Shown here one piece after another: positions 1 through 18,885 of a stretch of 64,000 nt of DNA. A model generated the notes under the pieces. It did not search any database. It saw only the letters and a program-made list of their open reading frames with translations, and was not told the origin of the DNA. Positions within the stretch are counted from its first letter, which is position 1, and the number at the start of each line of letters is the position of its first letter. A program made the position numbers and the translations under genes. The DNA comes from Cyanobacteriota bacterium. Its GTDB lineage: Bacteria > Cyanobacteriota > Cyanobacteriia > PCC-6307 > Cyanobiaceae. The stretch lies in the NCBI GenBank assembly GCA_046342815.1, contig JBKDOV010000078.1, forward strand, positions 2,675-66,674. Reading direction: 5' to 3'.

Positions 1-10
1 CGTCTGGATC

Positions 11-3000
11 ATGACCGGCCTTGTCGGCAGCACCAACTTTGGAGCAGGCTCGACCGTTGTGAATTTCTCGAAATTTGAACGGGGTCGAGTAAAACGTGGC
101 GGCTCTATCCTAAGCCTGGCTGGAGGAGGAGTAAGTGTGCTGGGAGATGCGGGAAAAGAACTTAAAAATACTGACGCCAACGCTTTACCTGATGAACTTA
201 GGCCGAATCAAGAGTTCACGGCAGCCGCCGTAGGGGGGACACAGAAGTCGGTTTTCCAATATCAGAATGGTTTCACCCAGAACCAGGCGACATTGAAGGG
301 CTATGAGGCCAGGCAGTCAGTCGGCGCCAGCTGGGTCAAGCGAAAGAGCATTGTGAAAATTGGCTCATTTTCCAGTCAAAGCTGGGTAGCGGCCGTGAAT
401 ACAGGGATTTTGTTTGAGGAAACCTACACCCCAGACCTACGTGCTGATGGTCGCCCGATGCCTCAGTGGCTCACCGATGTCGGCTATTCCCTCGCAGCTG
501 AAGGCGCTTTGCTGACCATGGGGGGGCCACTGTTCGGCGTGCTTAAAAGGAATAGAGTATCGCCGGTAGTCACGCAAGAAAATGCTCTGACGAACACGAG
601 ATACGATGTAAGCGGGGTGAAGACTCAGGCTTTGAAGTTTAAATCTTACTTTAATATGATTCTCGGCATCGGCAATGGATTTGTGGTCCCCGCCGTGGCC
701 GATACAGTGATGGCCAGTACTTATGGCACAAGCGCCGGTGGAATCGGCATCAATATGGGGCTGTCCGCAGACTTCATCAGGATCTCGCCGTGGATAGTTG
801 GTGTCAAGGGGATAGCAACGTCGCAGACCTCGATGTTCTTCACCGGCAGTGATCCATGGAAGGTGAAGGAGCTGGCGTACGCCTCAATCGGCGCCGCGGC
901 TCCGTTCGGAATCTATGTGCCGATCCTGTCGTTTCACTACACCAGCCAGCCAGCAGACACCACAACCGCCGCCCCCCTCTCCGGCATTGTCGACGGTGAC
1001 GCCAGCGGCGCCATGGCCGCCGACACTGCGCCAGCGCAAACCAGCTCGGGGTTCTACCAGGCCGCTCCCTCCGGCGTCGACTATCCGCTCCTCTACAACC
1101 CCCCGCACGCCAGCAACAACGGCATCAGCAACCTCTCCACCAACCCCTCCAGCACCACCGTTCTCGGCACCACCGCCTCGCCTCTTTTCCTCTTCACGCT
1201 CCAGCCCGGCGCCTCCACCTCCTCACCAAGCCCAGGCACACGCATCTCGATCCGACGGCCAGGCTCCGGCCTCAAACCGACTGAGGCTCCCGTTCAAGTT
1301 GACGTCCTCGGCACCTACCTCGATCCAACGAGCAGCAGCAATCGCGCCACCGCGTCCGTCACCGTCGACGCCAGCGGCCAACTCGCTTCTGTGGTCATCA
1401 ACAACCCTGGACGCTACAGCTATCTCCCGGAAACCGGCAACAACAGCGGCGAATACATCCTCCAGCTCGATCTCGCCGCCGCTGGCCTCAGCACGCCAGC
1501 CTCCAAGCTGCCGCTCGTCACCCTCCCCGCCAGCAGCAGCGCCCTGGCCAGCGAGGGGCTCCTCACCTCTCCCGTCCTCCGCATCTCCAATCAGCCGATT
1601 GCGGCCACGGACTCCAACCTCCAGACCGCACCAGATTCTTCCTACCCCATCTACGACAGCAAAACCAATACCGCCGTCGATCCCCAGCCCAACTCCCTCG
1701 CCTCCTACAGCTACCAGAACGTCCCGATTCAGCTTTTCGCGCGCAACGCCGATGGCAGCAGCGGATCTCCCATCTCACTCATCAACCCCAACGCCTCCGC
1801 TCGGGTCTTCTTCAGTGAAGGGAGCATCAAGGCCATTCGACCTGAACAAAACCTCTACTTCCCCGTCAACCAGAAGGCCACAAACGGCTACAACCTCGTC
1901 GTCAACTTCGGGGCCTACGGCGCCCAAGTAGACAACCCCACCCTCGCGGATCTTCCCTCCGCCTCCATCAGCCTTCCACTCGCTGAAAGTGTCGCCTACA
2001 ACAACGCCGTCGCCGAGGAGCAGTTCTCGCCCCAGGCCGGCGCCATCCATGCAGGCGTCTATCTCGCCGATGGCATGTCCGATGCCATTCCCCTCTTCCC
2101 GGCCTACGGCAATCAAGCTGTCTACAACCGCGTTGTCCATCTCGCCTACGACAAAAACACCGGCACAACAACGCGCTTTTTCCTCAATGCCGATGACGGC
2201 AATGTCTACGAGCCCAATTATATCAACCAGGCGCTGAACTCCAACACGCCTCTCCCCTCGTTCTCCGCCGCCTCCCAGCCCGTCGCCCTCACCATCGCCG
2301 ATGCCGGCAACGGCAGCAACGACCGCTTCGGTGGTGACACCTTCGTGGCCTGGGTGGAAGCCACGCAACCGGTTGTCCCGCTCACCAGCGCCGATGGAGA
2401 GCAAAACTACCAGGCCTTCCTTCAGGCCCTCTACGGCTCCCAGCGCATCAACTACCGCATCAAGCAGTCGATCAGCGGCTGGGCCCCGATGGATGACGTC
2501 AAGCTCGACGCTCTCTACAAGCCCGACAACGCGATGATCCGGCAGCTGCGCGCCTTCAACGCAGCCAATCCCTTCACCAGCGATTCCAACGATCAACTCA
2601 GCCTGCTCGCCTGGGTGGAGGTTCCCCTACCCGGCCAGGAGAACCAGGCCGCCAGCCTCAAGGTCGCCATTCTCAATCCCACCGCCAGCAACTACAGCTG
2701 GGAGGCCCTCACCAGCAACGCCGAGGGCGCATCGACGATCAGCACCATCCCCTGGCAGATCGACAGGCATGGCGAAGCGCTCGCCATCGATGATCTCTCG
2801 ATCGGCTCGATGCCGCTGGAGCTCGCCGATGGCGATGGCGGCAGCACGTTGGTGCAGACACCGGTACTCAGCTTCAGCCGCGATGTGCGCACCCCTTACC
2901 GCCAGCGGGTCCTCAACGACAGCCCCCTGCTGTACCTGCCCTTCGACGGCCTCACCGCAGGGCTGAACGAGCTCAACCTCGGCACCACTCAGGGCTCCAT

Positions 3001-6000
3001 CACCCCGACCTTCGCCTCCTCCACCGGCCTGGATTTCAGCGTCAAACCAGCCCTCACAAAATCCCAGGGAACCGCGGTTCAGAACACCAATGGCACCGGG
3101 GTGCTGACCACCGGGCTGGGCACGAGCAATCGGCCGATGCTGGATCTGCTCGACAGCGCCACCTCAGACGAGCTGGCCGTCAACCTCGGCAGCCAGATCT
3201 CCGCCTTCACCGGCGAGTTCAGCAATCGCGTTGTCGATGACAACGCAGCGGTGCTCACACCTGCGATCCTCACGGTCAGCGATCTGCGCTACGGCGGCCT
3301 CTCGGTTGGCGACACGCTCACCGGGCCAGGCATTACACCCGGCACCAGGATCCTGGCGGTGAAGCAGGTCTACGACGACACCACGAAAACCGGCATCTAC
3401 GAAATCAGCGCCGATCAGACGGTGCTTGGCACCGCAATCGATATCCAGTCTTATCCCGATCCCACCACGATCGCCTATCTGAGCTTTGCGATTGATGCGG
3501 TCAGCAACAGCAGCGATCCCGACACCGCACCAAGCGCGACGCTGACCCTCTCGGACCTCAGCGGCGTCCCCAGGGTCGGCGACAGGTTGGCGGGTCTGGG
3601 CATCACACCCGGCACGACGATCACCGCCGTCAACGGCCTGGATCTCAACCAGGGCACCGCCACGGTGACGGTCAATCGCACGCAGGACGAAGCGGCCGCC
3701 ACCGGCGCCGCTGTCGTGGCGGCACCGGGTGGCTCATCGCCCTACACCATCGAGTTCTGGGCCAAACTCACCCCCAACACCAACTCCGATGGCGGCGGTC
3801 TGGTGGCCTTTGGCCAACCCTCCGCCACCGCCGTCGGGGACATGGAGCTTCCCAATGGCTGGTTGCTCACCTCCAGCTTTGTGGTGGATTTCATCTCCTA
3901 CAAACAGGCGGCCGAGCGCGGGCTGATCGAAAGCATCCCCGACAACGTCACCAACAACGCCGATCTCTACGCCTGGGGGTGGAGTGTGGTCGCCGATGGC
4001 GCCAACACCACGGCGATGAATGGCAGCGGCGGCAACAATCTCTACAGCAATGGTCTGCGCCTCAACAACCTGCAGGCCGGCAACAGACTCAATGGCGTCG
4101 CCTCCTTCCTGCAGGCCAATGGTCTCCAGCCCGACGACCTGATCGGGAAGAGCCAGGCGCCCGCCGACGTGATGGCCTCCATCCCGAAGACCGAGCTGCA
4201 GTTCGCCCATTTCATCGATCCCGCCCCGGGCAAGGCCACCTCGAACCTCAACACCGTCGCGATCAACACCAGCAGCTCGACCGCCCTCAATCAGGGCCTG
4301 GTGGTTCTCAATCCCGCCAGCACCGATAGCGGTGGTGCCACCTATCCCGATTGGGCGCAGGTGATCAACGACACCGCCAAGGGTGATCAGATCAACACCC
4401 TCTTCAAGCATCTCTGGAACTTCCAGCAGGCCACCGGCGATCCCAAGGTGACATTCACCCAGGCGCCGCTGGGCTACCGGATGCTGCTGGCGATTCAGGC
4501 CGCCTGGCCGTCTCTATCCGTCGAGGCGATTAAGGATAAGCTCAGCGATCCGGGGGCGCTGGCGCAGTTCATCGCCGATTCCGGCGTCGTGGCGACACCC
4601 GCCGAGGCCGCCGCGTGGCTGGAGGCCAAGGAGCTGGAGCTCAATCAGACCCGCGCCAGTGCCGCCAATCCGCTGAGCGTCGATCGGTTCGCCGGCTACG
4701 AACTGGGCTACACCCTCAACTACGGCCCTGCGGTGTCGGTGAACACAAGCGGGCAGCTCGTCTTTGACGTCGGCGCTGATGCCTCCCTGGTGTCCGACGT
4801 GGCCGGTGGTCTGGAGGATGACCAATGGCATTACGTCGTCGCCTCCTATCTGCCCGACTACGTCGACTACACCACAGACGCTGGCACCACCTTCCAGCTG
4901 CCCAGCAATGTCGGCACCGCAACGCTCTACATCGACAACAAACAGGCGAGTCAGAGCACCATCGTCAACGCCTACGACCCCAGCAACATCAACGATGCGT
5001 TGGTGCTGCTCGCCAACAATGCCGGTGCGGCGATCGATCATCTGGCGCTCTACGACAACGCCCTGACAGCCCAGACGCTCCCGCCGGCCAGTGACGACTG
5101 GCCCATGCCCAACAACGCGGAAGCCCTGCTCGCCCTGCGCGAGCTGGGCATGGTGATCGACACCAAAACCCCCGATCCCGGCGCCATTCCCGGGGCTGTC
5201 ACCGCCCACTGGGATGGTCGCAATGTCAATCCCAACAACGCTGTTCTCAATACCTTCTATTCGATCTTCTCTCCCGCGACAAACGGCAGCCAGAGCGGCA
5301 GCTGGAGCGAAGCCTCCCCGCTCAATCCCCTCCTGGCGGTCGCACCCACCACGCCCAGTGCCGTGCAGCCCGATGCCGGCAGGAACAGCCTGCTGCTGTC
5401 CATCACCCCCGAACTGTGGTCCTCCAACAGTTGGGCGGTGACCACCGCCACCAATCCAACCCCGCAGACCGACAAACCCTTCAATCCCTCCGGACTCGAG
5501 CTGGATTCCGTTCAGCTGCAGATCAACGGCGCTCCAGTCACGCTCACATCCGATCAGATCCTGATCGGCAACGCCACCCTCGCGAGCCTGCAGCCCGACA
5601 GCAGAAGCAGCCAACTTAATTACACGATCCTCTCGTCAACGCCGGAGCTGACGCTCGTGCCCCCGCTCGATCGCTCCACTGTAGAGGCGGTCAGCAGCGA
5701 ACCCACAACCGCCACGTTGGTCTACAGCAACGGCACCAGCGTCAGCATCGCGCTGACGCCTGCCCTGACCAGTAACGCCAATACGCAGCCGCTCGCCAGC
5801 GCCGTTCGCGTCGCCAAGCTCAACAACAAACCCCTACTCACGGAGATCGAAACCTCAAACGAGGCTCTTGGCACCTCCGCCATCATCGAACAAGCGCCGC
5901 TGCAACTGAAATACATCGACAGCGGCGAGGTATTCCGCAGCACCACCAGTGCGGCCACCGCCAATGAAACCGCCGCCAGCACCCCGGCCCAGAGCTTCGG

Positions 6001-9000: not shown

Positions 9001-12000
9001 GATCTACTGGAACTCCAGCCAGGATGGTGGCACCACCTGGGCCGGTTGGCGGGCGCTCGACAGCGGCCTTGGCTTCCGCAGCTCGAATGCGCCATCGCTG
9101 GCAGTCTTCAAGGGCGAGCTCTACCTGAGCTGCATCGATGCCTCGACGAACCAGATCAGGATCGCCAACCTCGATCGCAGCAGCAACAGCTGGGCTGCAG
9201 CGGGCACGGTGGGCAATGAGCAGGCGCAGAAGTACGCCAGCCTGATCAGCGAAACCGTCGACGGCGTCGAGCAGCTCGCTGTTTACTTCGTCGCCAACAA
9301 CGCCGGCTCCACTCTGCTCAAGAGCCACAGCTCGGATCCCGGCAGTCCCTCTGGCTGGACCGGTAATCAAGTGATTGATTACAACAATGGCAGCAACCAG
9401 CAAACGGCTTCCGGTCCACTTGCTGTCTCCAGCATCAACGGCACCACCGTGATCGCCTACCAGGGCGGCACCGTCGCCGCCCCCAGCGACACCATCTTCC
9501 TGGCCAGCAGCGCGACACCCAACAGCAGTGCATCTTGGCGCGCTCAGTCCTACATCGATCCGAAACAACGCACCACGCCCTCCCTCACCACCAGCCCGGA
9601 GGGTCTGCTCCTCGGCTACACCACCGCCAACTCCGCCAACCTGGAGCTCGCCCTGCTGGCCAATGCCTCCGGCACCTGGCAGTCCGCGAACACCTACAGC
9701 GTCACCAGGGACAACGGCGATCTCAATGACGTGGCTCTGCTGGCCATTCCAGACAGCGACCCAGACAGCAGCGATGACAACACGCTCCTGCTCGCCGGTG
9801 TGAACACGACCTCCGGCAATGCGATCGAAACCAATCGGCTGAGAACGGTGGATGACAGCTCGGTGGATGACAGCTGGACCCCAGCCAGCCAGTTGCTCGA
9901 GCGCATCGAAGCCAATGGTGAAATTAGCTTCTCCGGCATCGCCGCCACCGCCGCTCCCACCGCCACCTGGCTGGGTGATGTGCCGATCGTGGCCGTCAAC
10001 AACACGGTGGACGCCACCAGCACCATCAACGTCTACAGCGTGGGCGGCAGCACCCAGAGCTGGACCCTGGCCTCCTCCTTCACCGCAAGCGGTGATCAAC
10101 CAGCGATCAGTGCCGCGGCTCCCGGCCTCACCACCACCGACTCCGGCATCGCGCTCACCTACATCAACAGCGATCGTTCCATCACCGTCAACCAGCTCAA
10201 CCTGCTCAACCTGAACGGCACCCCGGTGGATGGGCTGCAGTTCAATGCAGACGGCAGTCTCACCCCCAGCCCAGGCCAACCTGCTGATCTGCGGTGGAGC
10301 GGCAGCACTTATACCGCAGCCAACAGCGGCATCAGCAGCAACCTCTCCAGCACACCCATCGACATCAACGGCACGCTTCTGCTCGCCAATGTCCGCCCAG
10401 ATGGCACCCCTGAAGAAACACAATTCTGGCTCAATGCCCTGCCGGCCGCCCAGGATCCAGACAGCACCACCTGGCTAAATACCACGCTGCAGCTCAGCGA
10501 CGGCAGCGGTGGCTGGCTGGTGCAGCAGCAGGGCGGCGCTGACCATCCCGTCGCAATCGGCGTGGTGGATCCCACCTGGCAGCAGCCCAACGGGGGGCTC
10601 TCACCCTGGGCGCCCTCCTTCGCGGAAGTGGACGGTGTGCTCTATTCCGCCGTGCGCGGCTGGAGCGGCTCCAACGACACCAACAAGACCCTCTACTGGA
10701 ACCGCAGCACCGACAACGGCAGCACCTGGAGTGCGTGGCAGCAGCTTCCCGGAGACATGACCTCCGACCGGCCGCCCACGATCGCCAGCTATGACGGCAC
10801 GCTGTATCTCGTCTACATCGGCCAGGACAACAGTCACACCCTGAATCTCACCAAGCTTGAGAACGCCGACACCAACCAGTGGGCCGATCAGATCCCGATC
10901 CGTGCAGGTGCCAGTGGCGCATCCAACCAGACGGCCGAGTTCGCCACCCTGGTCAGCGAGGGTGATCAACTGGCGCTTTATTACGTGGGCACCGACAAGA
11001 ATGAGCTCTACAGCACCAGCTCCACCGATCCTTACAACACGGGCAATTTCACCACCTCCACGCTGATCAAGTACAACAACAACAATGACAACCAGACCGC
11101 TTCAGGGCCGCTGGCGGCAACCCGGCTGAACGGGCAGACCTATCTGGCCTACCAGGGAGGCACCTATCAGTCGGGCAACAACAAGCCGGGGAAGTCCAAT
11201 CAGATCTTCCTCACTACCGGCAGCGCCAACGACAACGACTGGACGCTGATCAATGGCATTCCCCAGCCTGCCAACTCCAGCCACACCGGCGTGGGTCTGG
11301 CGGCCAACCACACGGGGCTTGTTCTCAGCTACAGCGATGTGGCCGACGGCAAGAACGTCGTCGCGCTGCAGCAGGGCAGGGGCTCCGGCCCCAGCTGGAG
11401 CTTCTCGCCCTACACCATGCTTGAGCGCCCCGCTGATGGCCAGGCGCTCTACGACGGAGCCAACAGCCTCTTCGCGCGCACCGGCAGCGAAGGGGTGCTC
11501 GTCTCCACGATCGATTCCATAGCCAACGAAGCGATCGTCAACGCCCAGGTCACGCCCCTTCCTCCCTCGCTGGTGCTTACTCCTGAGCAGACACGCTCTA
11601 CGCTCACAGCCGTCGGCGATCTCACCGGCGACGGTCTGGACGACCTGCTGATCAGCGCCGCCAACGTGGTGCGCACAGGCAACGGCAGCACGGCGCCACA
11701 GCTGCACACCGGCATCCGGCTGCTCAGTGGCGCCGCCACCAGCGAGGCCCTGCTGGCGGCCAACAATGCCGACGCCACCAATCAGACCCTGCAGCTCGCT
11801 CCAGCCCTGTCCCTCAACAGCGGCACCCCCAGCACCAGCCTCACCGCCACAGGCGCTCCGGGCGACCTGCCCCAGCTGAGCATCAGCGGCCGCGAAGGCG
11901 ACGTCGTCACGCGGATCACCAGCAAGAACGACCAGACCCTCACCAAGTTCAGCGCCAACGCCAGCAATCCGGACTCGCTCCTGCAGCTGTTCCAGAACGC

Positions 12001-15000
12001 CGAGCAAGACCAGCAGACCCTCAACCAAGGCCAAGGCTGGGGGCAGGCGGCATTGAACAGCAGCGGTGCCTTCGGCGATCTCAACGGCGACGGCTGGATC
12101 GATCTGTTCGATCCAGCCGGCAACAACACCATCGCCTCCGTCCAGGGAGCCGGTTACTACAGCCTCTGGAGCATCCGCGCCGCCGGGGATGCCAACGGCA
12201 ATGGTGTCGATGACGTGCTGCTGGCGCTCAGCCCCAATGGCCCTGCCTACGGCCAGATTGTCAGCGGTCAGCCCAGTGCGCTGCAGGCGGTGCTGGTGGA
12301 TGGCTCGCTGTTCAAGGTCGACAAGGACACCAACAGCTTCCGCCTGGATCAACTCTGGGTTCCGCTCAATCCCTACAACACCAGCCAGCTTTACGACATC
12401 AACAGCACCACCCCCGATGTCTATCTGCCGTCGCTGCAGAACTGGTTCGATCCGATCCTCAGCTTCCAGCCGGGTTCACTCACCGCCGCCTCCACAACAA
12501 ACCCCATCAACCCCCGTGGCGCCATGTCCTACTCACCGCCCAGCGCGGTGGTGAGTCCCGAGGGCCAGACCTATCTCTTCTTCTCCGGTGCCGACTTCTC
12601 CGGCACCGATGACGCCAGCGGTCTGTGGATGGCGTACAAGGACGATGCAGGCAGCTGGCAACAGATGGTCCTGGACATCGACCTGGACATCGGCAGCAAC
12701 TGCAACAACACAACCCCCAGCGCCGCTTATTTCAAGGGCAAGCTCTACGTTGCCTACACTGATACCAACCAGAACATCAACATTGCCGTCTGCTCAGGAT
12801 CCCCGGACGATACCAAGAACTGGAGCGGCTACCAGGTGGTCACCACCACCAATGAGTCCACGATCTACTCGCCAACCCTGCTGGAGGAAGCGGGGCGACT
12901 GGCGCTTTACTTCCCCACCAACAACAAGGATGGCTTACTGATCAATGCACAATCCCAGAGAGTTCGCTATCTCTACAGTCTTGATCCTGGCGACAAGTCG
13001 GCCCATGGCCACTGGGGTGCATCGCTTGATTCCAGCACGGGCCAGTACAGCGGCATCAGCGGCCAGCTGGACTATGAGGTCACCTCGGCGATTGCCGCCA
13101 CTCGTTTCCAGGGGCAGACGGTGCTTGCATTCAGAAGCTTTGCCTCCGGCGGTGGTTATGACGCAGGCAACGGCACAATCAAGCTGCTCACCAGTGGGAC
13201 GACCGCGCCTACAGCCACCGCCCCGGCTCCCACGCTCAGCTGGAAAGAGTTCGATACCGCTGTCAGCAACGTCAACGGCGTGGGGCTGTCCACCGACCAG
13301 GCTCTGCTTTATCTGACGACCAGCAAGAACTTCAACGACCCCAATCCCACCTCAAAGATCTGGGGCCTGGCCCCCAATGATCTGGCGTCCGGCACCTGGA
13401 CCATGGGCGGCCAGACAACGCTGAGCAATCCCAGCCTATTCAACGAAAATTCAGCCGAGAGTACATTTTCCGATGATGTGTACTTTGGCGCCACCGTTGT
13501 TCCGTTCATGGAAAACGGGTCCCTCATGGCGGCCTGGACAGATCACGACAAAAAAGTCCAGGTGGCCGACCTCAGTACTACCGTCTCGCTCCCCCGCCAG
13601 TCCTCCCTGGTCGGTTTCTCCCTCGATGGCAACAGCGACATCAATGGCGATGGCTTCATGGATGTGCTGGTCAGCGATCCCAGCGATCCCAGTCAATCCG
13701 TCAACAATCAATACGCTCTCTTCGGCGGCGACTATCTCAACATCGCCTCGCAGGTCGGCACGCCCGGTGACGACGCCCTGATCGGCACCCCCCTCGCTGA
13801 TGTCATCTACACCCTTGGCGGCACTGACGTGGTGCAAAGCCTGGGTGGTGCCGATGTGATCCTCACCGGGTCCGGTGATGATCAGATCGCCATCACAGGC
13901 CCCGGCTTCCTGCGCATCGATGCCGGCGGCGGCACCGACCAACTGCTGCTGGCAGGCCTGGCGAATCAGGACTACGACTTCTCGTTGAACGTTCCGGAGC
14001 CGGAGTATTTCGCGGGCACCAAACTCCGCAACATCGAGCTGATCAGCTCTGTGGACTATGGCTCGAACACCATCAGCCTCGATGCCGCGGCCGTCAGCGC
14101 GTTCAATCCGGCCCGCATACTCTTCCTCACGCCCGACAGCAGCGACCACATCGCCCTCAGCACCGAGTTCCAGCGCAACAGCGCCCTCGACAGCAGCTAT
14201 GGCGGAGTGGTCTGGAGTGCCTACAGCGCCGATGCCGACGCCGCAAAGGCCTCGGACAGCGCCAGCACGCCTGCTCTGGTGTACGTGCTTAATCCCGATG
14301 ACGGAACCGCAGACGTTGACTGGCTGTCCAGCCACGTACGCACGGACAACACCTCAACAACCACCCGATCGATCGCCCCCACCAACCCGCTGTCGGCGAG
14401 CGAGCCGGTGGAGCCCGCTCTGCCCAGCCCCCGCTCCAGCACACAGGGCTTCGGCAAGGGACTCAGCCTGGTGGCCTACCCCACCACCAACCAGAGCACC
14501 GCGGCGCGCTTCCTGATTCAGCGCAACGATTCATCGTCCATCCAGGCGGTCGCCTACAACACCACCTCCCAGAACGCCACCGCAGATGCCGGGCCCAATT
14601 ACACGCCTGCAACGGGCCTTGTGGTGTTCCAGCCAGGCGAATGGGAACGAGAGATCGCGATTCCGTTGAACCCCCAATCCCTGAGCTCCCAGCGGGCAAG
14701 CTCCATCTCGCTGAACGTCATCGAAATCCCCGCATACCCAGGCATGCGGGAGCTCCACTCGCTTCTTTCGCCCACCCCTAATCCCTCCACGGGCATCACA
14801 CCAGTGGTCTCCAATCTGCAGCTGGGCATCGACGAGTCCAGCGCGGCCGCACGCCTCTCCTTCCGCGTCGACACCAATGACGACGGTGCCGATGAGCTGC
14901 GGCTATTTATCGCCAGTCGCGACTCCGCCACCGACCTCATCCCCTCCCGCAGCCAGGAGGTGGTGCTCCGTGATTTCAAGCCCGACAGCAACTTCACCGT

Positions 15001-16024
15001 TCCGGTGAACTCCTTCAACAACCTGCCGCTAGACCACGACGCCCGTCACAATCGACAGGTCAGCGGTGCCCTGGGGCTCAACCTCATCCCCAGGGAACAG
15101 CAGAACAAGCACATCGTCTCCCTGCTTGGCCCCGCCTTCCGCCCCACCCCTTCCGTGGAAACGGTGGGCACCATGCAACTCCGCTTCCAGCAGGACACTC
15201 CCCTCACCACCTGGCGCTCCGACACCGCCGGCGGACAGGTGACCTTCGCTCTCCAGGCAGGAGCCACCAAACAACTCCTGCTCTCAGACGCCACCGGCGG
15301 CAGCGCCGGCTCGATCAACCCCGCCAGCGCCCTCGACAACAACCCCACCAGCGGCTGGCAGAGCACTGAGAGCCGGGCGGTCGGCAGCCGATCGATCACC
15401 ACCGTCCCCAACCTCACCGCCCAGACCTGGGCACCCACCGCCACCCGCGACGGCATCGAGCTCGCCCTGCTCGAACTCACCGTCATCGGCAACCAGATCA
15501 CCGCCCTCTTCCAGGGCGGCGTCAGCGCCGAGTTCTGGCAGGCCAGCGGCACCGCACCCGCTCTGGTGCCCGTGGCAACCTCGCTGGAGGTGCAACGCCT
15601 AGCCGGTTACGACAACACCATCGGTCTCTATTCGATCGATAACATCACCGGCATGGTCGACGGCCGCAGCCCCGGCGACGCCGGTTATCTCCAAGCCGCC
15701 CTCGCACGCAGCGAGGCTGAGGATCTTTTGCTCACAGCCGCCGAACTGCCAGCCTTTGGACAGTCCGCCATCTTCAACTCCCTACCGATCGACAGCAAAA
15801 AGCGCTACGGCGTTCTCCTCCTCCCCAACAGCGATCCCAACACCATCTTCTCCTGCTTCAGCGCCGCCAACCCCGGCGCTGAAACCCAGATGGTCCGCCT
15901 CAGCACCGGTGCCAATCGCTACGCGCTCGGCATCGAAGACATCGCCGTCGCCTCAGGTCGCAGCGACAAGGACTTCAACGACAACATCCTCTCCCTCAGC
16001 GGTGTGTCGTTGGGGATCTTCTGA
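11..16024 (+). CDS. giant multidomain cell-surface/secreted protein (5,337 aa; 5' end may lie beyond the window)
   Basis: Uninterrupted 16,014-nt ORF. ATG at 11, but the frame is also open back to nt 2. Motifs read from the translation: FG-GAP-like Ca loops (GDVNGDGYADIAL, GDFNADGYDDFIS, GDIDADGLNDIQL); Asp-boxes (SSDGGATW, SQDGGTTW, STDNGSTW); LamG-like (YTIEFWAKL...WHYVVASY...LYIDNKQ...IDHLALYDNALT); RTX-like run (LGGTDVV..LGGADVILTGSGDDQI..AGGGTDQLLL); Calx-beta-like (ATADAGPNYTPATGLVVFQPGEWEREIAIPL); DUF4114-like C-terminus (GLYSID...DKDFNDNILSL). Confidence 0.9.
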   Translation: MTGLVGSTNFGAGSTVVNFSKFERGRVKRGGSILSLAGGGVSVLGDAGKELKNTDANALPDELRPNQEFTAAAVGGTQKSVFQYQNGFTQNQATLKGYEARQSVGASWVKRKSIVKIGSFSSQSWVAAVNTGILFEETYTPDLRADGRPMPQWLTDVGYSLAAEGALLTMGGPLFGVLKRNRVSPVVTQENALTNTRYDVSGVKTQALKFKSYFNMILGIGNGFVVPAVADTVMASTYGTSAGGIGINMGLSADFIRISPWIVGVKGIATSQTSMFFTGSDPWKVKELAYASIGAAAPFGIYVPILSFHYTSQPADTTTAAPLSGIVDGDASGAMAADTAPAQTSSGFYQAAPSGVDYPLLYNPPHASNNGISNLSTNPSSTTVLGTTASPLFLFTLQPGASTSSPSPGTRISIRRPGSGLKPTEAPVQVDVLGTYLDPTSSSNRATASVTVDASGQLASVVINNPGRYSYLPETGNNSGEYILQLDLAAAGLSTPASKLPLVTLPASSSALASEGLLTSPVLRISNQPIAATDSNLQTAPDSSYPIYDSKTNTAVDPQPNSLASYSYQNVPIQLFARNADGSSGSPISLINPNASARVFFSEGSIKAIRPEQNLYFPVNQKATNGYNLVVNFGAYGAQVDNPTLADLPSASISLPLAESVAYNNAVAEEQFSPQAGAIHAGVYLADGMSDAIPLFPAYGNQAVYNRVVHLAYDKNTGTTTRFFLNADDGNVYEPNYINQALNSNTPLPSFSAASQPVALTIADAGNGSNDRFGGDTFVAWVEATQPVVPLTSADGEQNYQAFLQALYGSQRINYRIKQSISGWAPMDDVKLDALYKPDNAMIRQLRAFNAANPFTSDSNDQLSLLAWVEVPLPGQENQAASLKVAILNPTASNYSWEALTSNAEGASTISTIPWQIDRHGEALAIDDLSIGSMPLELADGDGGSTLVQTPVLSFSRDVRTPYRQRVLNDSPLLYLPFDGLTAGLNELNLGTTQGSITPTFASSTGLDFSVKPALTKSQGTAVQNTNGTGVLTTGLGTSNRPMLDLLDSATSDELAVNLGSQISAFTGEFSNRVVDDNAAVLTPAILTVSDLRYGGLSVGDTLTGPGITPGTRILAVKQVYDDTTKTGIYEISADQTVLGTAIDIQSYPDPTTIAYLSFAIDAVSNSSDPDTAPSATLTLSDLSGVPRVGDRLAGLGITPGTTITAVNGLDLNQGTATVTVNRTQDEAAATGAAVVAAPGGSSPYTIEFWAKLTPNTNSDGGGLVAFGQPSATAVGDMELPNGWLLTSSFVVDFISYKQAAERGLIESIPDNVTNNADLYAWGWSVVADGANTTAMNGSGGNNLYSNGLRLNNLQAGNRLNGVASFLQANGLQPDDLIGKSQAPADVMASIPKTELQFAHFIDPAPGKATSNLNTVAINTSSSTALNQGLVVLNPASTDSGGATYPDWAQVINDTAKGDQINTLFKHLWNFQQATGDPKVTFTQAPLGYRMLLAIQAAWPSLSVEAIKDKLSDPGALAQFIADSGVVATPAEAAAWLEAKELELNQTRASAANPLSVDRFAGYELGYTLNYGPAVSVNTSGQLVFDVGADASLVSDVAGGLEDDQWHYVVASYLPDYVDYTTDAGTTFQLPSNVGTATLYIDNKQASQSTIVNAYDPSNINDALVLLANNAGAAIDHLALYDNALTAQTLPPASDDWPMPNNAEALLALRELGMVIDTKTPDPGAIPGAVTAHWDGRNVNPNNAVLNTFYSIFSPATNGSQSGSWSEASPLNPLLAVAPTTPSAVQPDAGRNSLLLSITPELWSSNSWAVTTATNPTPQTDKPFNPSGLELDSVQLQINGAPVTLTSDQILIGNATLASLQPDSRSSQLNYTILSSTPELTLVPPLDRSTVEAVSSEPTTATLVYSNGTSVSIALTPALTSNANTQPLASAVRVAKLNNKPLLTEIETSNEALGTSAIIEQAPLQLKYIDSGEVFRSTTSAATANETAASTPAQSFGYSQVSGSFANSTEGTSSGWLAIAQPYTTNATSDPSGRIWIQYTGQFKVDGEIRTAVLDVDEAPATWLNALADSNFSPEEPNLPLLDSAVHRSSSGGLLIQADPTVGLDQNFGFTMLTARINGSDRDDLIIAAPQADGGGKVYIIDGNWIANNLTTANGATILNLANPSDLGDFVKVLKPGIQTDTTGKPLKSDVITDAGFGTALAYDDVSKTLWIGAPNYLRNLSDPTSTDGPLNPIGALYSYNLASGSGDSGTATPVKLEPIVGMGGTLIRPGPVGTPVTSYWGSQFGSALAVSGGRLAVSAPGMLAATLAIGSEAAQQIFVDGMDADTTYSGVIAGVQLPDLDTGIINISQGINSDFAGIGSGDPFTDGEKAYFDQMRTLVSDAVAEPTIYNNQAVQADAAGAVFYLGKGDALLAAPSLQTFAEQGSIYYGPNTLNTLGAAGFGSSVAFIDLSNVKTPSLAVGADATGGAGAVYLIDPNVSATNLPVKGLNPYQKLAANEAYLTLTGAASRDLFGNGLVNLGDVNQDSFDDLLIQAKNAAEGAGTGYVLFGSDQFSSDPGKSATGSVAPGSITQFTRTDGTPFRQAILVEQGYGSGFTGAGSFGSGDIDADGLNDIQLGSGPNGNAYLTWGKPYLEAIGDLSLSKLASDTGYLLSGLATTTEGSLRSIGDFNADGYDDFISIQPGQALSSVRIELGADTQTILADYRYNYYTFSILNGTQVISAGDVNGDGYADIALFSHKNLSSAAEGNQGAGSTTGILYGRSSTDLPIGSGFGLLAPVNPTSGAPLTALPGLLVEGSNQLKGLTSATPALIADGTTLYTAVKGATDNTIWFNISSDGGATWANWTNLSAVSFAFNAADGAGPSLALHNGKLYLSFLNRTGKLLLSSWDPSSEDNSAWTQPTLLTSAAAASTEGTSAIPFSSSYSPQLIDRGDALGILWVDPTTSTLYAAASTDPQDSVSLGWNGDIGGSTPTTPALAQIGDTIYMAVQGNGPANNEIYWNSSQDGGTTWAGWRALDSGLGFRSSNAPSLAVFKGELYLSCIDASTNQIRIANLDRSSNSWAAAGTVGNEQAQKYASLISETVDGVEQLAVYFVANNAGSTLLKSHSSDPGSPSGWTGNQVIDYNNGSNQQTASGPLAVSSINGTTVIAYQGGTVAAPSDTIFLASSATPNSSASWRAQSYIDPKQRTTPSLTTSPEGLLLGYTTANSANLELALLANASGTWQSANTYSVTRDNGDLNDVALLAIPDSDPDSSDDNTLLLAGVNTTSGNAIETNRLRTVDDSSVDDSWTPASQLLERIEANGEISFSGIAATAAPTATWLGDVPIVAVNNTVDATSTINVYSVGGSTQSWTLASSFTASGDQPAISAAAPGLTTTDSGIALTYINSDRSITVNQLNLLNLNGTPVDGLQFNADGSLTPSPGQPADLRWSGSTYTAANSGISSNLSSTPIDINGTLLLANVRPDGTPEETQFWLNALPAAQDPDSTTWLNTTLQLSDGSGGWLVQQQGGADHPVAIGVVDPTWQQPNGGLSPWAPSFAEVDGVLYSAVRGWSGSNDTNKTLYWNRSTDNGSTWSAWQQLPGDMTSDRPPTIASYDGTLYLVYIGQDNSHTLNLTKLENADTNQWADQIPIRAGASGASNQTAEFATLVSEGDQLALYYVGTDKNELYSTSSTDPYNTGNFTTSTLIKYNNNNDNQTASGPLAATRLNGQTYLAYQGGTYQSGNNKPGKSNQIFLTTGSANDNDWTLINGIPQPANSSHTGVGLAANHTGLVLSYSDVADGKNVVALQQGRGSGPSWSFSPYTMLERPADGQALYDGANSLFARTGSEGVLVSTIDSIANEAIVNAQVTPLPPSLVLTPEQTRSTLTAVGDLTGDGLDDLLISAANVVRTGNGSTAPQLHTGIRLLSGAATSEALLAANNADATNQTLQLAPALSLNSGTPSTSLTATGAPGDLPQLSISGREGDVVTRITSKNDQTLTKFSANASNPDSLLQLFQNAEQDQQTLNQGQGWGQAALNSSGAFGDLNGDGWIDLFDPAGNNTIASVQGAGYYSLWSIRAAGDANGNGVDDVLLALSPNGPAYGQIVSGQPSALQAVLVDGSLFKVDKDTNSFRLDQLWVPLNPYNTSQLYDINSTTPDVYLPSLQNWFDPILSFQPGSLTAASTTNPINPRGAMSYSPPSAVVSPEGQTYLFFSGADFSGTDDASGLWMAYKDDAGSWQQMVLDIDLDIGSNCNNTTPSAAYFKGKLYVAYTDTNQNINIAVCSGSPDDTKNWSGYQVVTTTNESTIYSPTLLEEAGRLALYFPTNNKDGLLINAQSQRVRYLYSLDPGDKSAHGHWGASLDSSTGQYSGISGQLDYEVTSAIAATRFQGQTVLAFRSFASGGGYDAGNGTIKLLTSGTTAPTATAPAPTLSWKEFDTAVSNVNGVGLSTDQALLYLTTSKNFNDPNPTSKIWGLAPNDLASGTWTMGGQTTLSNPSLFNENSAESTFSDDVYFGATVVPFMENGSLMAAWTDHDKKVQVADLSTTVSLPRQSSLVGFSLDGNSDINGDGFMDVLVSDPSDPSQSVNNQYALFGGDYLNIASQVGTPGDDALIGTPLADVIYTLGGTDVVQSLGGADVILTGSGDDQIAITGPGFLRIDAGGGTDQLLLAGLANQDYDFSLNVPEPEYFAGTKLRNIELISSVDYGSNTISLDAAAVSAFNPARILFLTPDSSDHIALSTEFQRNSALDSSYGGVVWSAYSADADAAKASDSASTPALVYVLNPDDGTADVDWLSSHVRTDNTSTTTRSIAPTNPLSASEPVEPALPSPRSSTQGFGKGLSLVAYPTTNQSTAARFLIQRNDSSSIQAVAYNTTSQNATADAGPNYTPATGLVVFQPGEWEREIAIPLNPQSLSSQRASSISLNVIEIPAYPGMRELHSLLSPTPNPSTGITPVVSNLQLGIDESSAAARLSFRVDTNDDGADELRLFIASRDSATDLIPSRSQEVVLRDFKPDSNFTVPVNSFNNLPLDHDARHNRQVSGALGLNLIPREQQNKHIVSLLGPAFRPTPSVETVGTMQLRFQQDTPLTTWRSDTAGGQVTFALQAGATKQLLLSDATGGSAGSINPASALDNNPTSGWQSTESRAVGSRSITTVPNLTAQTWAPTATRDGIELALLELTVIGNQITALFQGGVSAEFWQASGTAPALVPVATSLEVQRLAGYDNTIGLYSIDNITGMVDGRSPGDAGYLQAALARSEAEDLLLTAAELPAFGQSAIFNSLPIDSKKRYGVLLLPNSDPNTIFSCFSAANPGAETQMVRLSTGANRYALGIEDIAVASGRSDKDFNDNILSLSGVSLGIF

Positions 16025-16035
16025 GCGGTGAAAAA

Positions 16036-16362
16036 TCAGGCAATGGCCTGGAGTCGCTCAACGATCTGATGCCGCAGAGCAAGGCCATCCACTTGGATGG
16101 CCTCTGCATCCAGGGTGGTCAGCCGGCGATCACGCAGCAACACCTGGCCATCCACCATCAGATCGCGCACATCGCTGGCCTTGGTGGCGTAGACCAGCGC
16201 CGAGTAGATGCTGCTCGCCTGCTGGAAGTGCTTGCCTGCATCCGCGGATTGCTGGGCTTCCAGCCCTGTTTCAGTCGGAAACCGACAATTCCCCGCAATG
16301 CCAGTCAGGCACGGGGCTTGATCAACTGCAACACCTGTGGTCCCAACCCGCCGACACGTCGT
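16036..16362 (-). pseudogene. C-terminal remnant of an amidohydrolase-superfamily gene (MtaD/chlorohydrolase-like), no start codon
   Basis: My own translation of the minus strand gives ...SSIYSALVYATKASDVRDLMVDGQVLLRDRRLTTLDAEAIQVDGLALRHQIVERLQAIA*, with the stop at 16036-16038. This is the typical C-terminal signature of metal-dependent amidohydrolases. The frame is closed by a stop at 16363-16365 and has no usable start. Only about 90 of the roughly 430 expected codons are present. Confidence 0.4.
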
Positions 16363-16550
16363 TCACAATCGAGAGCTGCCAAGATCAATCGGGCTGATTC
16401 CTCAATGTCTCCCCGCTCAGCCGCAAGGCGGGCCTGCAGGTTGAGGGAGGAGGCCCGGTCACCGAGCTGCTGGCGGGCCTCCTCCCCTTGGCCGAGCCTG
16501 GGAGAGGGGAGTGTGGCGGTGGAACTGCTACTGGTCATGAACACGCTCAT
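16305..16550 (-). CDS. small hypothetical protein with UVR-like helical motif
   Basis: ATG at 16550 (alternative 16538) inside the 112-aa track ORF. High GC3 in this frame. Motif LQARLAAERGDIEESARLILAAL. The overlapping + strand ORF translates to low-complexity R/S/P junk. Confidence 0.4.
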   Translation of the reverse strand: MSVFMTSSSSTATLPSPRLGQGEEARQQLGDRASSLNLQARLAAERGDIEESARLILAALDCERRVGGLGPQVLQLIKPRA

Positions 16551-16708
16551 ACATAAGTCGCCAGAGCCGGCGAAGGACGCCACAAATAAGCATCCCCACC
16601 CCCGAAGGTCGCCATGGATTTCCAGGCAACAGTGAGGCATCAACTTTCAGAGTCTATTCATTTGCGGCAGGGTGTCATCGCCAGAAGCAACGATTTGCTG
16701 CTGACCTC

Positions 16709-16972: not shown

Positions 16973-17023
16973 GTCACACTTTCTTTCCATCTTGCCACAG
17001 GCCGCCAGGGCTCTGGCTGGAAA

Positions 17024-17299: not shown

Positions 17300-17393
17300 G
17301 GCAGAGGGACTCCGTTTCGTGGCATGACAGCACACAAATCCTCCGGCCTCAACCACCCGGCCAACGCTTCTTCCAGACTGATCCGATCTGCCG

Positions 17394-17930: not shown

Positions 17931-18016
17931 TCAGCGGCAGCCTTGCCAGGCCATCCACCCTGGACAGCCCGGCCCGGGTCGATACGTTGGGCCTCATCGC
18001 CTTGCCGCTCCGCCCG

Positions 18017-18872: not shown

Positions 18873-18885
18873 ACCAGGGGGCGGT

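What the first reader, a model, noticed from the sequence alone, without database searches (positions are those of the whole stretch)
11..16024. Single 16-kb ORF encoding a 5,337-aa multi-propeller surface protein
Seen: one uninterrupted reading frame fills a quarter of the window. It strings together at least seven recognisable module types:
- a hydrophobic N-terminus
- a P/S/T-rich linker
- a LamG-like fold
- an FG-GAP block of about 8 repeats
- four Asp-box propeller modules
- RTX-like repeats
- a Calx-beta domain
- a DUF4114 tail

Established: FG-GAP, Calx-beta, RTX and DUF4114 modules are typical of Ca-dependent extracellular adhesins. Marine Synechococcus are known to carry megadalton surface proteins (for example SwmB) in variable regions.

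Inference: this is a strain-variable cell-surface or exoprotein involved in adhesion, motility or escape from grazers and phage. I do not recognise the particular module order (LamG, then FG-GAP, then 4x Asp-box propeller, then RTX/Calx/DUF4114) from any characterised protein.
Basis: partly seen in the sequence, partly recalled or inferred. Interest (0 to 1): 0.8.

Follow-up and report, generated by a model that had tools for sequence, protein, structure and literature searches.

The report
Giant lectin-tipped propeller surface protein
The window holds most of a real 5,750-residue (600 kDa) gene of a freshwater picocyanobacterium that strings calcium-binding beta-propellers between a family-specific head and a sugar-binding tail; it is most likely a giant cell-surface adhesin of an uncharacterised family.

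Summary
The ORF is real but cut by the window edge. The frame is open to base 2, and the gene starts 1,239 nt upstream, giving 5,750 aa, 600 kDa, pI 4.3 and 5 Cys.

Twelve other assemblies cover most of it without frameshift, and seven species-level genomes carry collinear intact orthologues at about 40% identity.

The host is a freshwater Cyanobium-type picocyanobacterium, not marine Synechococcus.

- **Domain calls that pass Pfam here:** FG-GAP, BNR_2 and DUF4114.
- **Weak here but confirmed through relatives:** LamG, RTX and Calx-beta, which pass in distant family members that keep the same module order.

New findings:
- The true N-terminus (MPY...) is conserved and has no signal peptide. 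It heads only 78 of 1.84 billion representative proteins, always at residue 1.
- The DUF4114 tail always ends the protein and resembles LecB-type calcium lectins.
- One relative swaps this tail for a canonical RTX/serralysin type I secretion tail.

Best reading (confidence 0.5): a calcium-dependent, lectin-tipped surface adhesin, exported without Sec, probably by type I secretion, and held by its N-terminal module.

It is a new variant of a known kind. Interest is moderate.

The parts
2..16024 (+). 3' 16 kb of the giant gene. The frame is open from the window edge, and the stop is TGA at 16022-16024. The real gene starts 1,239 nt upstream of base 11 and encodes 5,750 aa.
11..946 (+). Window aa 1-312 (full 414-725). 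A K/R-richer, Gly-rich region with three weakly hydrophobic segments. In the orthologue model it forms about 10 long beta-strands plus two long Gly/Ala-rich helices.
947..1690 (+). P/S/T-rich linker (aa 313-560; 36% S+T+P).
1688..3211 (+). Conserved region of unknown fold (aa 560-1067; 64% mean column identity among 9 orthologues). It has no Pfam, NCBIfam or PDB sequence match.
3233..3685 (+). Two copies of a ~45-aa FeoA/SH3-like repeat (VGDxLxGxGIxxGTxI). Copy number is 0-5 in other family members.
3653..5170 (+). Split LamG/concanavalin-like domain (aa 1215-1720) with a large insertion. Inside it, nt 4472-4774 is a ~100-aa helical insert absent from all orthologues except the 96% twin.
5108..6310 (+). 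S/T/P-rich region followed by a conserved region of unknown fold (aa 1700-2100).
6308..8380 (+). Integrin-alpha-like FG-GAP propeller block, about 8 repeats. DxDxDG-type Ca motifs are at aa 2606, 2669 and 2725. It is among the most conserved parts (64% identity).
8378..11425 (+). Array of BNR/Asp-box-type beta-propeller modules (aa 2790-3805). The model shows about 17-18 blades, roughly three six-bladed propellers. Asp-boxes are at aa 2835, 3003 and 3566, and the BNR_2 hit covers 3548-3714. There is no FRIP motif.
11798..12310 (+). Second FG-GAP segment (aa 3930-4100; Ca motifs at 4023 and 4060).
12512..13630 (+). Fourth BNR-like propeller module (aa 4168-4540). It is homologous to 3526-3723 and has no exact Asp-box.
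13628..14170 (+). One FG-GAP repeat (aa 4543) followed by an RTX-like beta-roll (aa 4583-4640) and a conserved block. This is the most conserved stretch of the protein (72% identity).
14438..14770 (+). Calx-beta domain (Pfam match aa 4826-4887). It is borderline here and clear in relatives.
14768..15571 (+). Conserved region of unknown fold between Calx-beta and the tail (aa 4920-5187).
15572..16021 (+). C-terminal DUF4114 domain with invariant E-D...D-x-D-(F/Y)-(N/D)-D acidic motif 13 residues from the C-terminus. PA-IIL/LecB-like; putative Ca-dependent sugar-binding tip.

Best explanation
The gene encodes a 600-kDa, acidic, calcium-dependent protein that is displayed on the cell surface. It belongs to an uncharacterised family confined, as far as seen, to Cyanobium-type picocyanobacteria.

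**Proposed working.**
- The protein has no Sec signal. It is exported unfolded and C-terminus first, most likely by a type I secretion system encoded elsewhere in the genome.
- Outside the cell, calcium folds the RTX-like roll, the Calx-beta domain, the FG-GAP propellers and the tail.
- The family-specific N-terminal module keeps the protein attached to the envelope. This module is a conserved 145-residue beta head followed by a long-stranded beta/Gly-rich region.
- A rod of one split LamG, two FG-GAP blocks and four BNR-type non-catalytic propellers projects outward.
- It presents a LecB-like, calcium-dependent sugar-binding DUF4114 domain at the very tip.
- Likely roles are binding of glycans on other cells, particles or the cell's own envelope. 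That would mean aggregation or adhesion, with shielding as a side effect.
- A conserved upstream LuxR/GerE regulator probably controls expression.

**Shown:** gene integrity, true start, absence of a signal peptide, domain content and order, family distribution, conservation pattern.

**Inferred:** export route, retention, orientation, sugar binding, biological role.
For: **Integrity and true ends.**

**No signal peptide.**
- The start MPY... is conserved in 16 homologues.
- The highest 12-residue hydropathy in the first 60 aa is 0.85, and there is no K/R in the first 10.

**Typical composition of type I substrates.** pI 4.3 and 5 Cys in 5,750 aa.

**Calcium modules.** FG-GAP at 56 bits, with DxDxDG motifs. 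The RTX-like block is the most conserved segment, at 72% identity. Calx-beta.

**Same module order with Pfam-passing scores in distant members.** P0114 shows Laminin_G_3 63.7, FG-GAP 159.7, HemolysinCabind 27, Calx-beta 55.7 and DUF4114 49.2 bits.

**Link to type I secretion.** Family member P0079 has the same head. It ends in canonical RTX repeats (52.6 bits) plus the serralysin C-terminal domain (22.4 bits against a cut-off of 20.7) at residues 4683-4786 of 4801.

**The head domain.**
- It is the second most conserved part (62% identity).
- It is found in only 78 of 1.84 billion representatives, always at residue 1, and mostly on proteins of 3,300-6,100 aa.
- This is as expected for a module that interacts with conserved machinery.

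**The tail.**
- DUF4114 ends every family member that was read through to its C-terminus, apart from P0079, which ends in RTX repeats and a serralysin-type domain; the acidic residues of the tail are invariant.
- Ten of its 12 PDB hits are PA-IIL-family lectins: LecB, PA-IIL and thrombocorticin. They align up to their own C-termini.
- DUF4114 is reported as a Ca-dependent adhesion or mannose-binding domain (PMC9109919, PMC11934332).

**Propellers.** The AF2 model is all-beta. Foldseek gives 433 hits at E<=1e-3, led by multi-propeller receptors and GH74. There is no FRIP motif.

**Precedent.** Giant proteins are found in Synechococcus exoproteomes and on the cell surface (PMC4949707, PMC9387257).
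Against: - The RTX-like block scores below Pfam's cut-off here (21.4 against 23).
- The RTX-like block lies about 700 residues from the C-terminus. Classical type I substrates carry RTX repeats and the signal at the very end. Here the end is a folded lectin-like domain.
- No ABC transporter, membrane-fusion or TolC gene lies in the 48 kb downstream, in the 3 kb upstream (L001), or next to the orthologues.
- The N-terminal module has no similarity to the known retention modules of LapA-type adhesins. No Pfam or NCBIfam hit was found. Its model is of low to moderate confidence (pLDDT 57).
- The PDB matches of the tail are individually non-significant (E 0.4-3).
- No experimental datum on localisation, calcium or sugar binding exists for any member.
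Confidence: 0.5

Rival explanations
1. It is a released or loosely attached exoprotein or surface coat. Its main role would be a passive shield or decoy against grazers and phages, as proposed for other picocyanobacterial giant proteins, rather than a tethered adhesin.
For: - Giant proteins are detected in Synechococcus exoproteomes and are thought to shield cells (PMC4949707; PMC9387257).
- Divergence is fast, about 40% identity between species, against 69-75% for the neighbouring regulator.
- Module number is variable.
- Relatives carry nonsense alleles.
- All of this fits antagonistic selection on an exposed protein.
Against: - The strongly conserved N-terminal head and the strictly terminal lectin-like domain suggest a polar anchor-to-tip design.
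- A pure shield would not need a conserved sugar-binding tip.
- No localisation data are available either way.
Confidence: 0.2
2. The N-terminal long-stranded beta region is a genuine outer-membrane beta-barrel, and the protein is displayed like an inverse autotransporter (intimin/invasin): barrel at the N-terminus, passenger outside, lectin at the tip. It would be a new signal-less variant.
For: - The AF2 model of the orthologous N-terminus has about 10 antiparallel strands of 13-23 residues and two Gly/Ala-rich helices, at pLDDT 60-86.
- The weak Foldseek hits to that part are outer-membrane barrels: Pla, BamA, FimD, an autotransporter and RagA.
- The overall polarity (N-terminal anchor, C-terminal lectin) mimics intimin and invasin.
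Against: - There is no Sec signal peptide, which every known type V protein needs.
- 413 residues precede the region.
- The barrel hits have probability <=0.14 and E>=0.05.
- Sequence conservation in this region is the lowest of the protein, at 15-29%.
- There are no Big or LysM domains.
Confidence: 0.1
3. It is an extracellular enzyme: a sialidase or another glycoside hydrolase built on the BNR propellers, with carbohydrate-binding accessory modules.
For: - The BNR_2 hit has E=9.8e-12.
- Foldseek hits include the GH74, GH43 and NanA/NanC sialidase folds.
- LamG and DUF4114 could act as carbohydrate-binding modules.
Against: - There is no FRIP or (F/Y/W)R(I/V/L)P motif anywhere.
- There is one Asp-box per roughly 165-560 residues rather than one per blade.
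- There are no glycoside-hydrolase family hits in Pfam or NCBIfam.
- The structural matches are generic propeller matches, led by non-enzymatic receptors.
Confidence: 0.05
4. The long ORF is an assembly artefact, or a decaying pseudogene that happens to be open in this assembly.
For: - Two related metagenome contigs (L002, L003) carry in-frame TAG codons.
- One (L005) carries a frameshift.
- All the data come from assemblies whose read type is unknown to me.
Against: - Ten other assemblies (L006-L015) match the window over their overlap, each differing by 2-5 mismatches; two of them also carry one 3-base gap.
- The 96% twin and seven species-level orthologues keep >4,700-6,000 codons open.
- GC3 is 0.79, like the neighbouring genes.
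- Conservation is domain-structured.
Confidence: 0.02

Closest known systems
Type I-secreted giant RTX adhesins (LapA of Pseudomonas fluorescens, MpIBP of Marinomonas primoryensis, SiiE, FrhA) - from my own knowledge of the class
   Same: - Megadalton size, acidic and nearly Cys-free.
- No N-terminal signal peptide.
- Calcium-dependent modules.
- Polar design: an N-terminal cell-proximal module, a long extender, and ligand- or sugar-binding modules near the C-terminus.
- One family member (P0079) ends in a canonical RTX/serralysin-type tail.
   Different: - The extender is made of beta-propellers, LamG and unknown domains, not tandem Ig-like repeats.
- The RTX-like roll is short, sub-threshold and 700 residues from the end.
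- The extreme C-terminus is a DUF4114 lectin-like domain.
- The N-terminal module is unrelated in sequence to known retention modules.
- No cognate exporter, LapG or LapD genes lie nearby.
SwmB and other giant cell-surface proteins of marine Synechococcus (PMC7522525, PMC9387257, PMC4949707)
   Same: - A picocyanobacterial host and a single multi-kb gene.
- Lower G+C than the flanking genes.
- Surface or exoproteome location is expected.
- Roles in interaction with or defence against grazers are discussed.
   Different: - The host here is a freshwater Cyanobium-type lineage.
- There are no long tandem arrays, and no cadherin, VCBS or Big repeats.
- There is no swmA or motility context.
- The architecture (head, LamG, FG-GAP, BNR propellers, RTX, Calx-beta, DUF4114) is not reported for those proteins.
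- Direct sequence comparison with SwmB was not done.
PA-IIL / LecB family calcium-dependent lectins, and DUF4114 adhesion domains (Myxococcus PilY1.1, Acanthamoeba mannose-binding protein)
   Same: - The acidic E-D...D-x-D-(F/Y)-N-D motif lies close to the chain's C-terminus.
- The Pfam DUF4114 match is above its cut-off.
- The best PDB sequence hits are LecB, PA-IIL and thrombocorticin.
   Different: - Here the domain is the last 150 residues of a 5,750-residue protein, not a free tetrameric lectin or an N-terminal pilus-tip domain.
- The PDB hits are statistically weak.
- Sugar specificity is unknown.
Inverse autotransporters (intimin, invasin)
   Same: An N-terminal beta-rich putative anchor, an extended passenger, and a lectin-type domain at the C-terminal tip.
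   Different: No signal peptide, no LysM or Big domains. The barrel is not established.

Membership tests
Type I-secreted RTX adhesins (LapA/MpIBP class) | No cleavable N-terminal Sec signal; acidic, Cys-poor polypeptide | tested here: met
   The conserved start MPYSSNIQ... has no hydrophobic core. pI is 4.3, with 5 Cys in 5,750 aa.
Type I-secreted RTX adhesins (LapA/MpIBP class) | RTX nonapeptide repeats followed by the secretion signal at the extreme C-terminus | tested here: not met
   HemolysinCabind scores 21.4 bits (<23) at aa 4592-4626, about 700 aa from the end, and the end is DUF4114. The feature is met in relative P0079: 52.6 bits plus Peptidase_M10_C at the C-terminus.
Type I-secreted RTX adhesins (LapA/MpIBP class) | Extender of tandem Ig-like (BIg/cadherin-like) repeats | tested here: not met
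   There are no Big, cadherin or VCBS hits in Pfam or NCBIfam. Self-comparison shows only four propeller modules and two short repeats.
Type I-secreted RTX adhesins (LapA/MpIBP class) | N-terminal retention module related to known ones | tested here: inconclusive
   No Pfam domain is recorded on any N-terminal homologue. The model shows a 3-blade propeller-like beta domain. A functional analogy is possible, but homology was not found.
Type I-secreted RTX adhesins (LapA/MpIBP class) | Cognate ABC transporter, membrane-fusion protein and TolC-like genes | tested here: inconclusive
   None lies in the window, in L001, or beside the orthologues. The rest of the genome could not be searched.
SwmB-type Synechococcus motility protein | Sequence homology to SwmB, long tandem repeat arrays, swmA/clade III island context | not tested
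   No SwmB sequence was compared. Indirectly: the host is freshwater, self-comparison shows no long tandem arrays, and the neighbours are housekeeping genes.
Integrin-alpha-type FG-GAP beta-propeller | Repeated FG-GAP units with DxDxDG-type calcium loops | tested here: met
   PF01839 scores 56.3 bits and PF13517 36.9 bits. Motifs lie at aa 2606, 2669, 2725, 4023, 4060 and 4543. The best PDB sequence hit is the integrin alpha-V propeller.
Sialidase / GH33 (BNR propeller enzymes) | Asp-boxes plus the FRIP motif and catalytic residues | tested here: not met
   There are three Asp-boxes, and BNR_2 scores 45 bits. No RIP or (F/Y/W)R(I/V/L)P motif is present anywhere. So these are BNR-type propellers, not a sialidase.
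LamG / concanavalin A-like lectin fold | Match to LamG/Laminin_G_3 profiles | tested here: met
   There is no direct Pfam hit. The 9-orthologue profile hits laminin alpha-1 LG4-5 at E=5.2e-5. Laminin_G_3 scores 62.8 and 63.7 bits at the equivalent position in P0100 and P0114. The domain is split by a ~250-aa insertion.
DUF4114 / PA-IIL (LecB)-like calcium lectin | PF13448 match above cut-off; conserved acidic calcium-loop motif near the chain end | tested here: met
   The Pfam scores are 29.3-30.9 bits against a cut-off of 27. E122, D123, D132, D134 and D137 are invariant in 9 family tails. PDB hits are LecB, PA-IIL and thrombocorticin at E 0.4-3.
DUF4114 / PA-IIL (LecB)-like calcium lectin | Calcium-dependent sugar binding | not testable with these tools
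   This rests only on literature for other DUF4114 proteins.
Inverse autotransporter (type Ve secretion) | Sec signal peptide, N-terminal 12-stranded outer-membrane barrel, Big-domain passenger | tested here: not met
   There is no signal peptide and no Big domains. Barrel-like strands are only modelled, at moderate confidence, with weak barrel hits.

The most novel reading that the evidence does not exclude
The family-specific N-terminal module may be a previously undescribed device for exporting megadalton proteins and anchoring them in the cyanobacterial envelope without a Sec signal. The module consists of a conserved 145-residue three-blade head, a disordered linker, and then about 10 long amphipathic beta-strands with two Gly/Ala-rich helices. 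One possibility is a barrel or sheet that inserts into the outer membrane from outside after C-terminus-first export. If so, the family would define a new class of propeller-based, lectin-tipped 'megadhesins' specific to freshwater picocyanobacteria, possibly behind their grazer-induced microcolony formation.
Probability: 0.15. Interest if true: 0.7.

Novelty: new variant of a known kind. Interest (0 to 1): 0.42.

Why it matters
Freshwater picocyanobacteria are major lake primary producers. Their surface biology is almost unstudied, including aggregation, microcolony formation, grazer and phage avoidance, and attachment to particles or partners.

This work defines a retained, regulator-linked family of 600-kDa proteins with a testable polarity: a conserved head, a propeller rod and a calcium-lectin tip. 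That gives concrete experimental targets:
- glycan binding by the tail;
- the role of the head in retention;
- control by the GerE regulator.

It also offers a comparison point for the better-known marine Synechococcus giant proteins and for proteobacterial RTX adhesins. The extender here is built from beta-propellers instead of Ig-like repeats, which broadens the known design space of bacterial megaproteins.

It is not a new principle. Giant calcium-dependent surface adhesins are well known.

Tried and rejected
1. **Homologue search with the whole protein.** A search with window aa 1-1200 returned only the protein itself. I first read that as 'orphan'. It was a sensitivity limit of the word index: a focused N-terminal query found 15 homologues, and the exhaustive profile search found 78.

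2. **Self-BLAST of the whole protein.** It gave nothing; tiling was needed.

3. **In-frame TAG codons in relatives as recoding or readthrough.** Rejected as unsupported.
   - Each is a single-base change from an E, Y, Q or W codon.
   - TAG is expected for about 50-56% of nonsense changes in these genes.
   - Four of four therefore has p about 0.06-0.1.

4. **Secretion or accessory genes next to the gene.** None was found in the window, in L001 or in five orthologous loci.

5. **PDB sequence and profile searches.** The unknown regions (aa 560-1067 and the last 420 aa as a whole) gave no hits.

6. **NCBIfam on all tiles.** Essentially empty.

7. **Structure prediction of this protein's own N-terminus.** The orthologue P0043 was modelled instead.

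8. **First exhaustive search job.** It failed because the profile was too long, and was rerun with shorter sequences.

9. **Internal copies of the head domain.** None was found.

10. **Sialidase activity.** Rejected because no FRIP motif is present.

11. **tRNA genes as island landmarks.** None lies in the window.
Full report

A + strand frame runs without a stop from the ATG at base 11 to a TGA at 16022-16024, 5,337 codons. Its third-position G+C (0.79) matches that of the neighbouring genes.

The ORF is not complete. Translating from base 2 gives V-W-I before the Met, with no stop, so the frame runs off the window. The evidence for the true start is:
- A search with the first 1,200 residues returned one protein, P0001. 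It is a partial 1,560-aa product of a Cyanobacteriota MAG contig and extends 298 residues further upstream.
- On that contig (L001; 1 mismatch to window 1-3796) the frame stays open to a TAG. An ATG there adds another 115 residues.
- A JGI assembly calls the same gene at exactly 5,750 aa on a 23-kb contig.
- The resulting N-terminus, MPYSSNIQVVNDANGTAYAFLADNG..., is shared by all 15 homologues found with an N-terminal query. Each begins at this point.

The true product is therefore 5,750 aa, 600 kDa, pI 4.3, with 5 Cys. The window misses its first 413 residues. Below, 'aa' means window numbering; add 413 for the full protein.

**2. Is it an assembly artefact?** No.
- Ten further assemblies from other samples match window 6069-19404 at 99.91-99.98% identity. 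Two differ by one 3-nt indel only.
- A 96%-identical MAG, Cyanobium sp. EUL_250 (L016), aligns to residues 679-5750 of the full protein in a single HSP and is syntenic downstream.
- Six more species-level MAGs carry collinear orthologues at 37-45% identity, with 4,758 to more than 6,068 codons open. They are labelled Synechococcus sp. UW140, Lake Loclat and Lac Pavin, plus one titled Pimelobacter simplex that is almost certainly mislabelled.

**3. Whose gene is it?**
- EF-P, AccB and PdxA encoded downstream are identical to proteins of Cyanobacteriota MAGs. They cluster at >=90% identity with Cyanobium sp. FGCU-6, Cyanobium sp. ATX 6F1 and Synechococcus sp. HJ21-Hayes.
- The window's G+C is 62-71% outside the gene.
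- This is a freshwater Cyanobium-type picocyanobacterium, not a marine Synechococcus.
- The rest of the window is core metabolism: pdxA, accB, efp, murC, dus, argH, ftsY, queG, gyrA, purF, purL and an ABC1 kinase.
- The gene itself is 2-8 points lower in G+C, with a strong C-over-G skew on the coding strand.

**4. Domain anatomy.**

Directly, Pfam supports FG-GAP (56 bits), FG-GAP_3, BNR_2 (E=9.8e-12) and DUF4114 (29-31 bits against a cut-off of 27). Calx-beta is borderline (24-27 against 27). HemolysinCabind is sub-threshold (21.4 against 23). LamG gives nothing, and nothing at all is found in the first 2,100 residues. NCBIfam adds nothing.

I tested the weak calls through relatives:
- A profile of nine orthologues over aa 1215-1720 hits the laminin alpha-1 LG4-5 domain at E=5.2e-5.
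- The distant member P0114 (3,745 aa) shows the same order with clear scores. These are Laminin_G_3 63.7, FG-GAP 159.7, HemolysinCabind 27, Calx-beta 55.7 and DUF4114 49.2 bits, the last at its final residues.
- P0100, P0119, P0111 and P0078 agree.

- LamG is split by an insertion of about 250 aa. That insertion carries a further ~100-aa helical insert unique to this lineage.
- FG-GAP repeats also occur between the BNR modules, at aa ~4016-4090 and 4543.
- Only three exact Asp-boxes exist (aa 2835, 3003, 3566). Four ~170-370-aa modules are nevertheless mutually homologous.

An AF2 model of aa 2790-3930 (6-sequence alignment, pLDDT 56, best over the BNR_2 module) is all-beta, with about 17-18 blade-like strand groups. 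Foldseek returns 433 hits at E<=1e-3. They are led by multi-propeller proteins (LRP2, DDB1, GH74, LRP6) and a propeller lectin. There is no FRIP motif, so the propellers are not sialidases.

**5. The two ends are the informative parts.**

*N-terminus.* There is no signal peptide.
- The first 100 residues are far better conserved (62%) than the protein's average of about 40%.
- An exhaustive profile search of 1.84 billion representative proteins finds this head in only 78. It always starts at residue 1, and many of these proteins are giants of 3,300-6,100 aa.
- No Pfam family is recorded on any of them.
- The head has no copy inside the protein.

An AF2 model of the orthologous N-terminus (P0043, 16 sequences, pLDDT 57) shows the following:
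- Residues 7-144 form a beta domain. Foldseek aligns it with about three blades of sialidase-type propellers (E~1e-3, rmsd 3.3-3.9 A over ~145 columns).
- Two helices follow, then a ~200-residue disordered stretch.
- About ten strands of 13-23 residues and two long Gly/Ala-rich helices come next.

Its hydropathy peaks (1.3-1.56) fall short of a classical transmembrane helix. Its only structural neighbours are outer-membrane barrels, at very low probability.

*C-terminus.*
- Every family member whose C-terminus was read ends in DUF4114, including the divergent UW140-type orthologues and P0114, with the single exception of P0079, described next.
- In nine tails E, D, D, D and D of the motif E-D...D-x-D-(F/Y)-(N/D)-D are invariant, 8-14 residues from the last residue.
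- The profile's 12 PDB hits are individually weak (E 0.4-3). Ten of them are PA-IIL-family calcium lectins (LecB, PA-IIL, thrombocorticin), aligned to their own C-terminal ends.
- Published work treats DUF4114 as a calcium-dependent adhesion or mannose-binding domain (PMC9109919, PMC11934332).

One member, P0079 (4,801 aa), keeps the head but replaces the tail. In its place are canonical RTX repeats (52.6 bits) and a serralysin-type C-terminal domain at residues 4683-4786. That is the standard signal-bearing end of type I secretion substrates.

**6. Context.**
- The only conserved neighbour is a LuxR/GerE-type regulator immediately upstream on the same strand. It is 69-75% identical in L001, L003 and L019, and its 160-aa N-terminal part is unassigned.
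- Downstream genes differ between lineages.
- No exporter genes lie nearby.
- A more distant paralogous subfamily (P0111) also sits in a Cyanobium-like genome.

**7. Mechanism.**

The best-supported reading, at confidence 0.5, has three steps:
- The protein is exported independently of Sec and C-terminus first, probably by type I secretion.
- Calcium drives folding outside the cell.
- The N-terminal module retains the protein, and a propeller rod presents a LecB-like lectin at the tip. The result is a giant adhesin.

The steps that are shown and those that are inferred are listed under Best explanation.

The main weaknesses are these:
- The RTX block is sub-threshold and lies far from the C-terminus.
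- No exporter genes are in view.
- The models are of moderate quality.
- There are no experimental data for any family member.

The rivals are:
- a released shield or decoy protein (0.2);
- an inverse-autotransporter-like barrel anchor (0.1);
- an enzyme (0.05);
- an artefact or pseudogene (0.02).

**8. Comparison and novelty.**

The class is known. It includes the giant calcium-dependent surface proteins of picocyanobacteria and the RTX adhesins of proteobacteria (PMC7522525, PMC9387257, PMC4949707).

This family differs in four ways:
- a private N-terminal module;
- a propeller-based rod instead of an Ig-repeat rod;
- an RTX-like roll that is internal rather than terminal;
- a strictly terminal DUF4114 lectin.

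I found no paper describing it. Full-text searches for DUF4114, and for giant proteins in Cyanobium or picocyanobacteria, gave nothing relevant.

I file it as a new variant of a known kind. Interest is moderate, at 0.42. It is a solid and useful family definition with testable parts, not a surprise of principle.

Noticed in passing
L002 nt 948 and 5220; L003 nt 2641 and 8245 (= L004 nt 632); L005 nt ~5600: Orthologues on three metagenome contigs are interrupted by in-frame TAG codons. These sit at positions where relatives have E, Y, Q or W, and the frame is otherwise open for thousands of codons. L005 has a frameshift. The TAGs are single-base changes, and TAG is the expected commonest nonsense codon here (about 50-56%). 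This therefore looks like recent loss-of-function alleles, or population variants, of an exposed surface protein rather than recoding.
   Followed up: yes
window 4472-4774 (aa ~1488-1588): A ~100-residue insert that looks helical lies inside the LamG insertion. It is absent from all nine more distant orthologues and present only in this lineage and its 96% twin L016.
   Followed up: partly
L001 2274-2969 (+), just upstream of the window; also L003 316-1092 and L019 11-463: A LuxR/GerE-type regulator sits directly upstream on the same strand in three lineages. It is 231 aa, with the HTH at 167-219 and an unassigned N-terminal part. It is 69-75% identical across lineages while the giant gene is about 40% identical. 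It is a likely dedicated regulator.
   Followed up: partly
window 18886-20652 (-); L001 504-1117: An SNF2-family helicase lies 3 kb downstream. It has sub-threshold similarity to defence-system helicases (ZorD, DrmD, DpdE). A PIN/PhdYeFM toxin-antitoxin pair lies upstream of the regulator. Together with the G+C dip, this suggests that the giant gene sits in a small flexible region next to core genes.
   Followed up: no
window 16069-16635 (+): The 188-aa ORF right after the giant gene is called as a gene in JGI and Logan assemblies. Its translation is R/P/S-rich and looks like an off-frame artefact of high-G+C DNA. Other assemblies call small genes on the opposite strand (16709-16915 and 17024-17299).
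   Followed up: partly
window 3233-3685; family proteins P0058, P0061, P0062, P0067: A ~45-aa FeoA/SH3-like repeat (VGDxLxGxGIxxGTxI) is present twice here. Other family members have 0 to 5 copies at different positions, which points to module shuffling within the family.
   Followed up: partly
P0079 (family member, 4,801 aa), residues ~4660-4801: This member has the same N-terminal head and passenger, but the DUF4114 tail is replaced by canonical RTX repeats plus a serralysin-type C-terminal domain. This is a natural tail swap that links the family to type I secretion.
   Followed up: yes
L017 (CALRIS020000003.1): The record is titled as a Pimelobacter simplex MAG. The locus is collinear with, and very similar to, the Synechococcus sp. 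UW140 loci (L018, L022), and is followed by cyanobacterial-type housekeeping genes. It is probably a mislabelled or contaminated bin.
   Followed up: no
L026 22158-22841: In the distant paralogue P0111 (4,007 aa, Cyanobium-like contig, flanked by several transposases) the DUF4114 tail is called as a separate 227-aa gene just after the giant gene. Either a frame break has occurred or the tail is genuinely split off.
   Followed up: no
window 37808-40060 (+) and 46971-48665 (+): The longest ORFs for dus (750 aa, Dus domain only at 419-744) and queG (564 aa, domains from residue 297) carry long unassigned N-terminal extensions. These are probably over-extended starts in high-G+C DNA rather than real fusions.
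   Followed up: no
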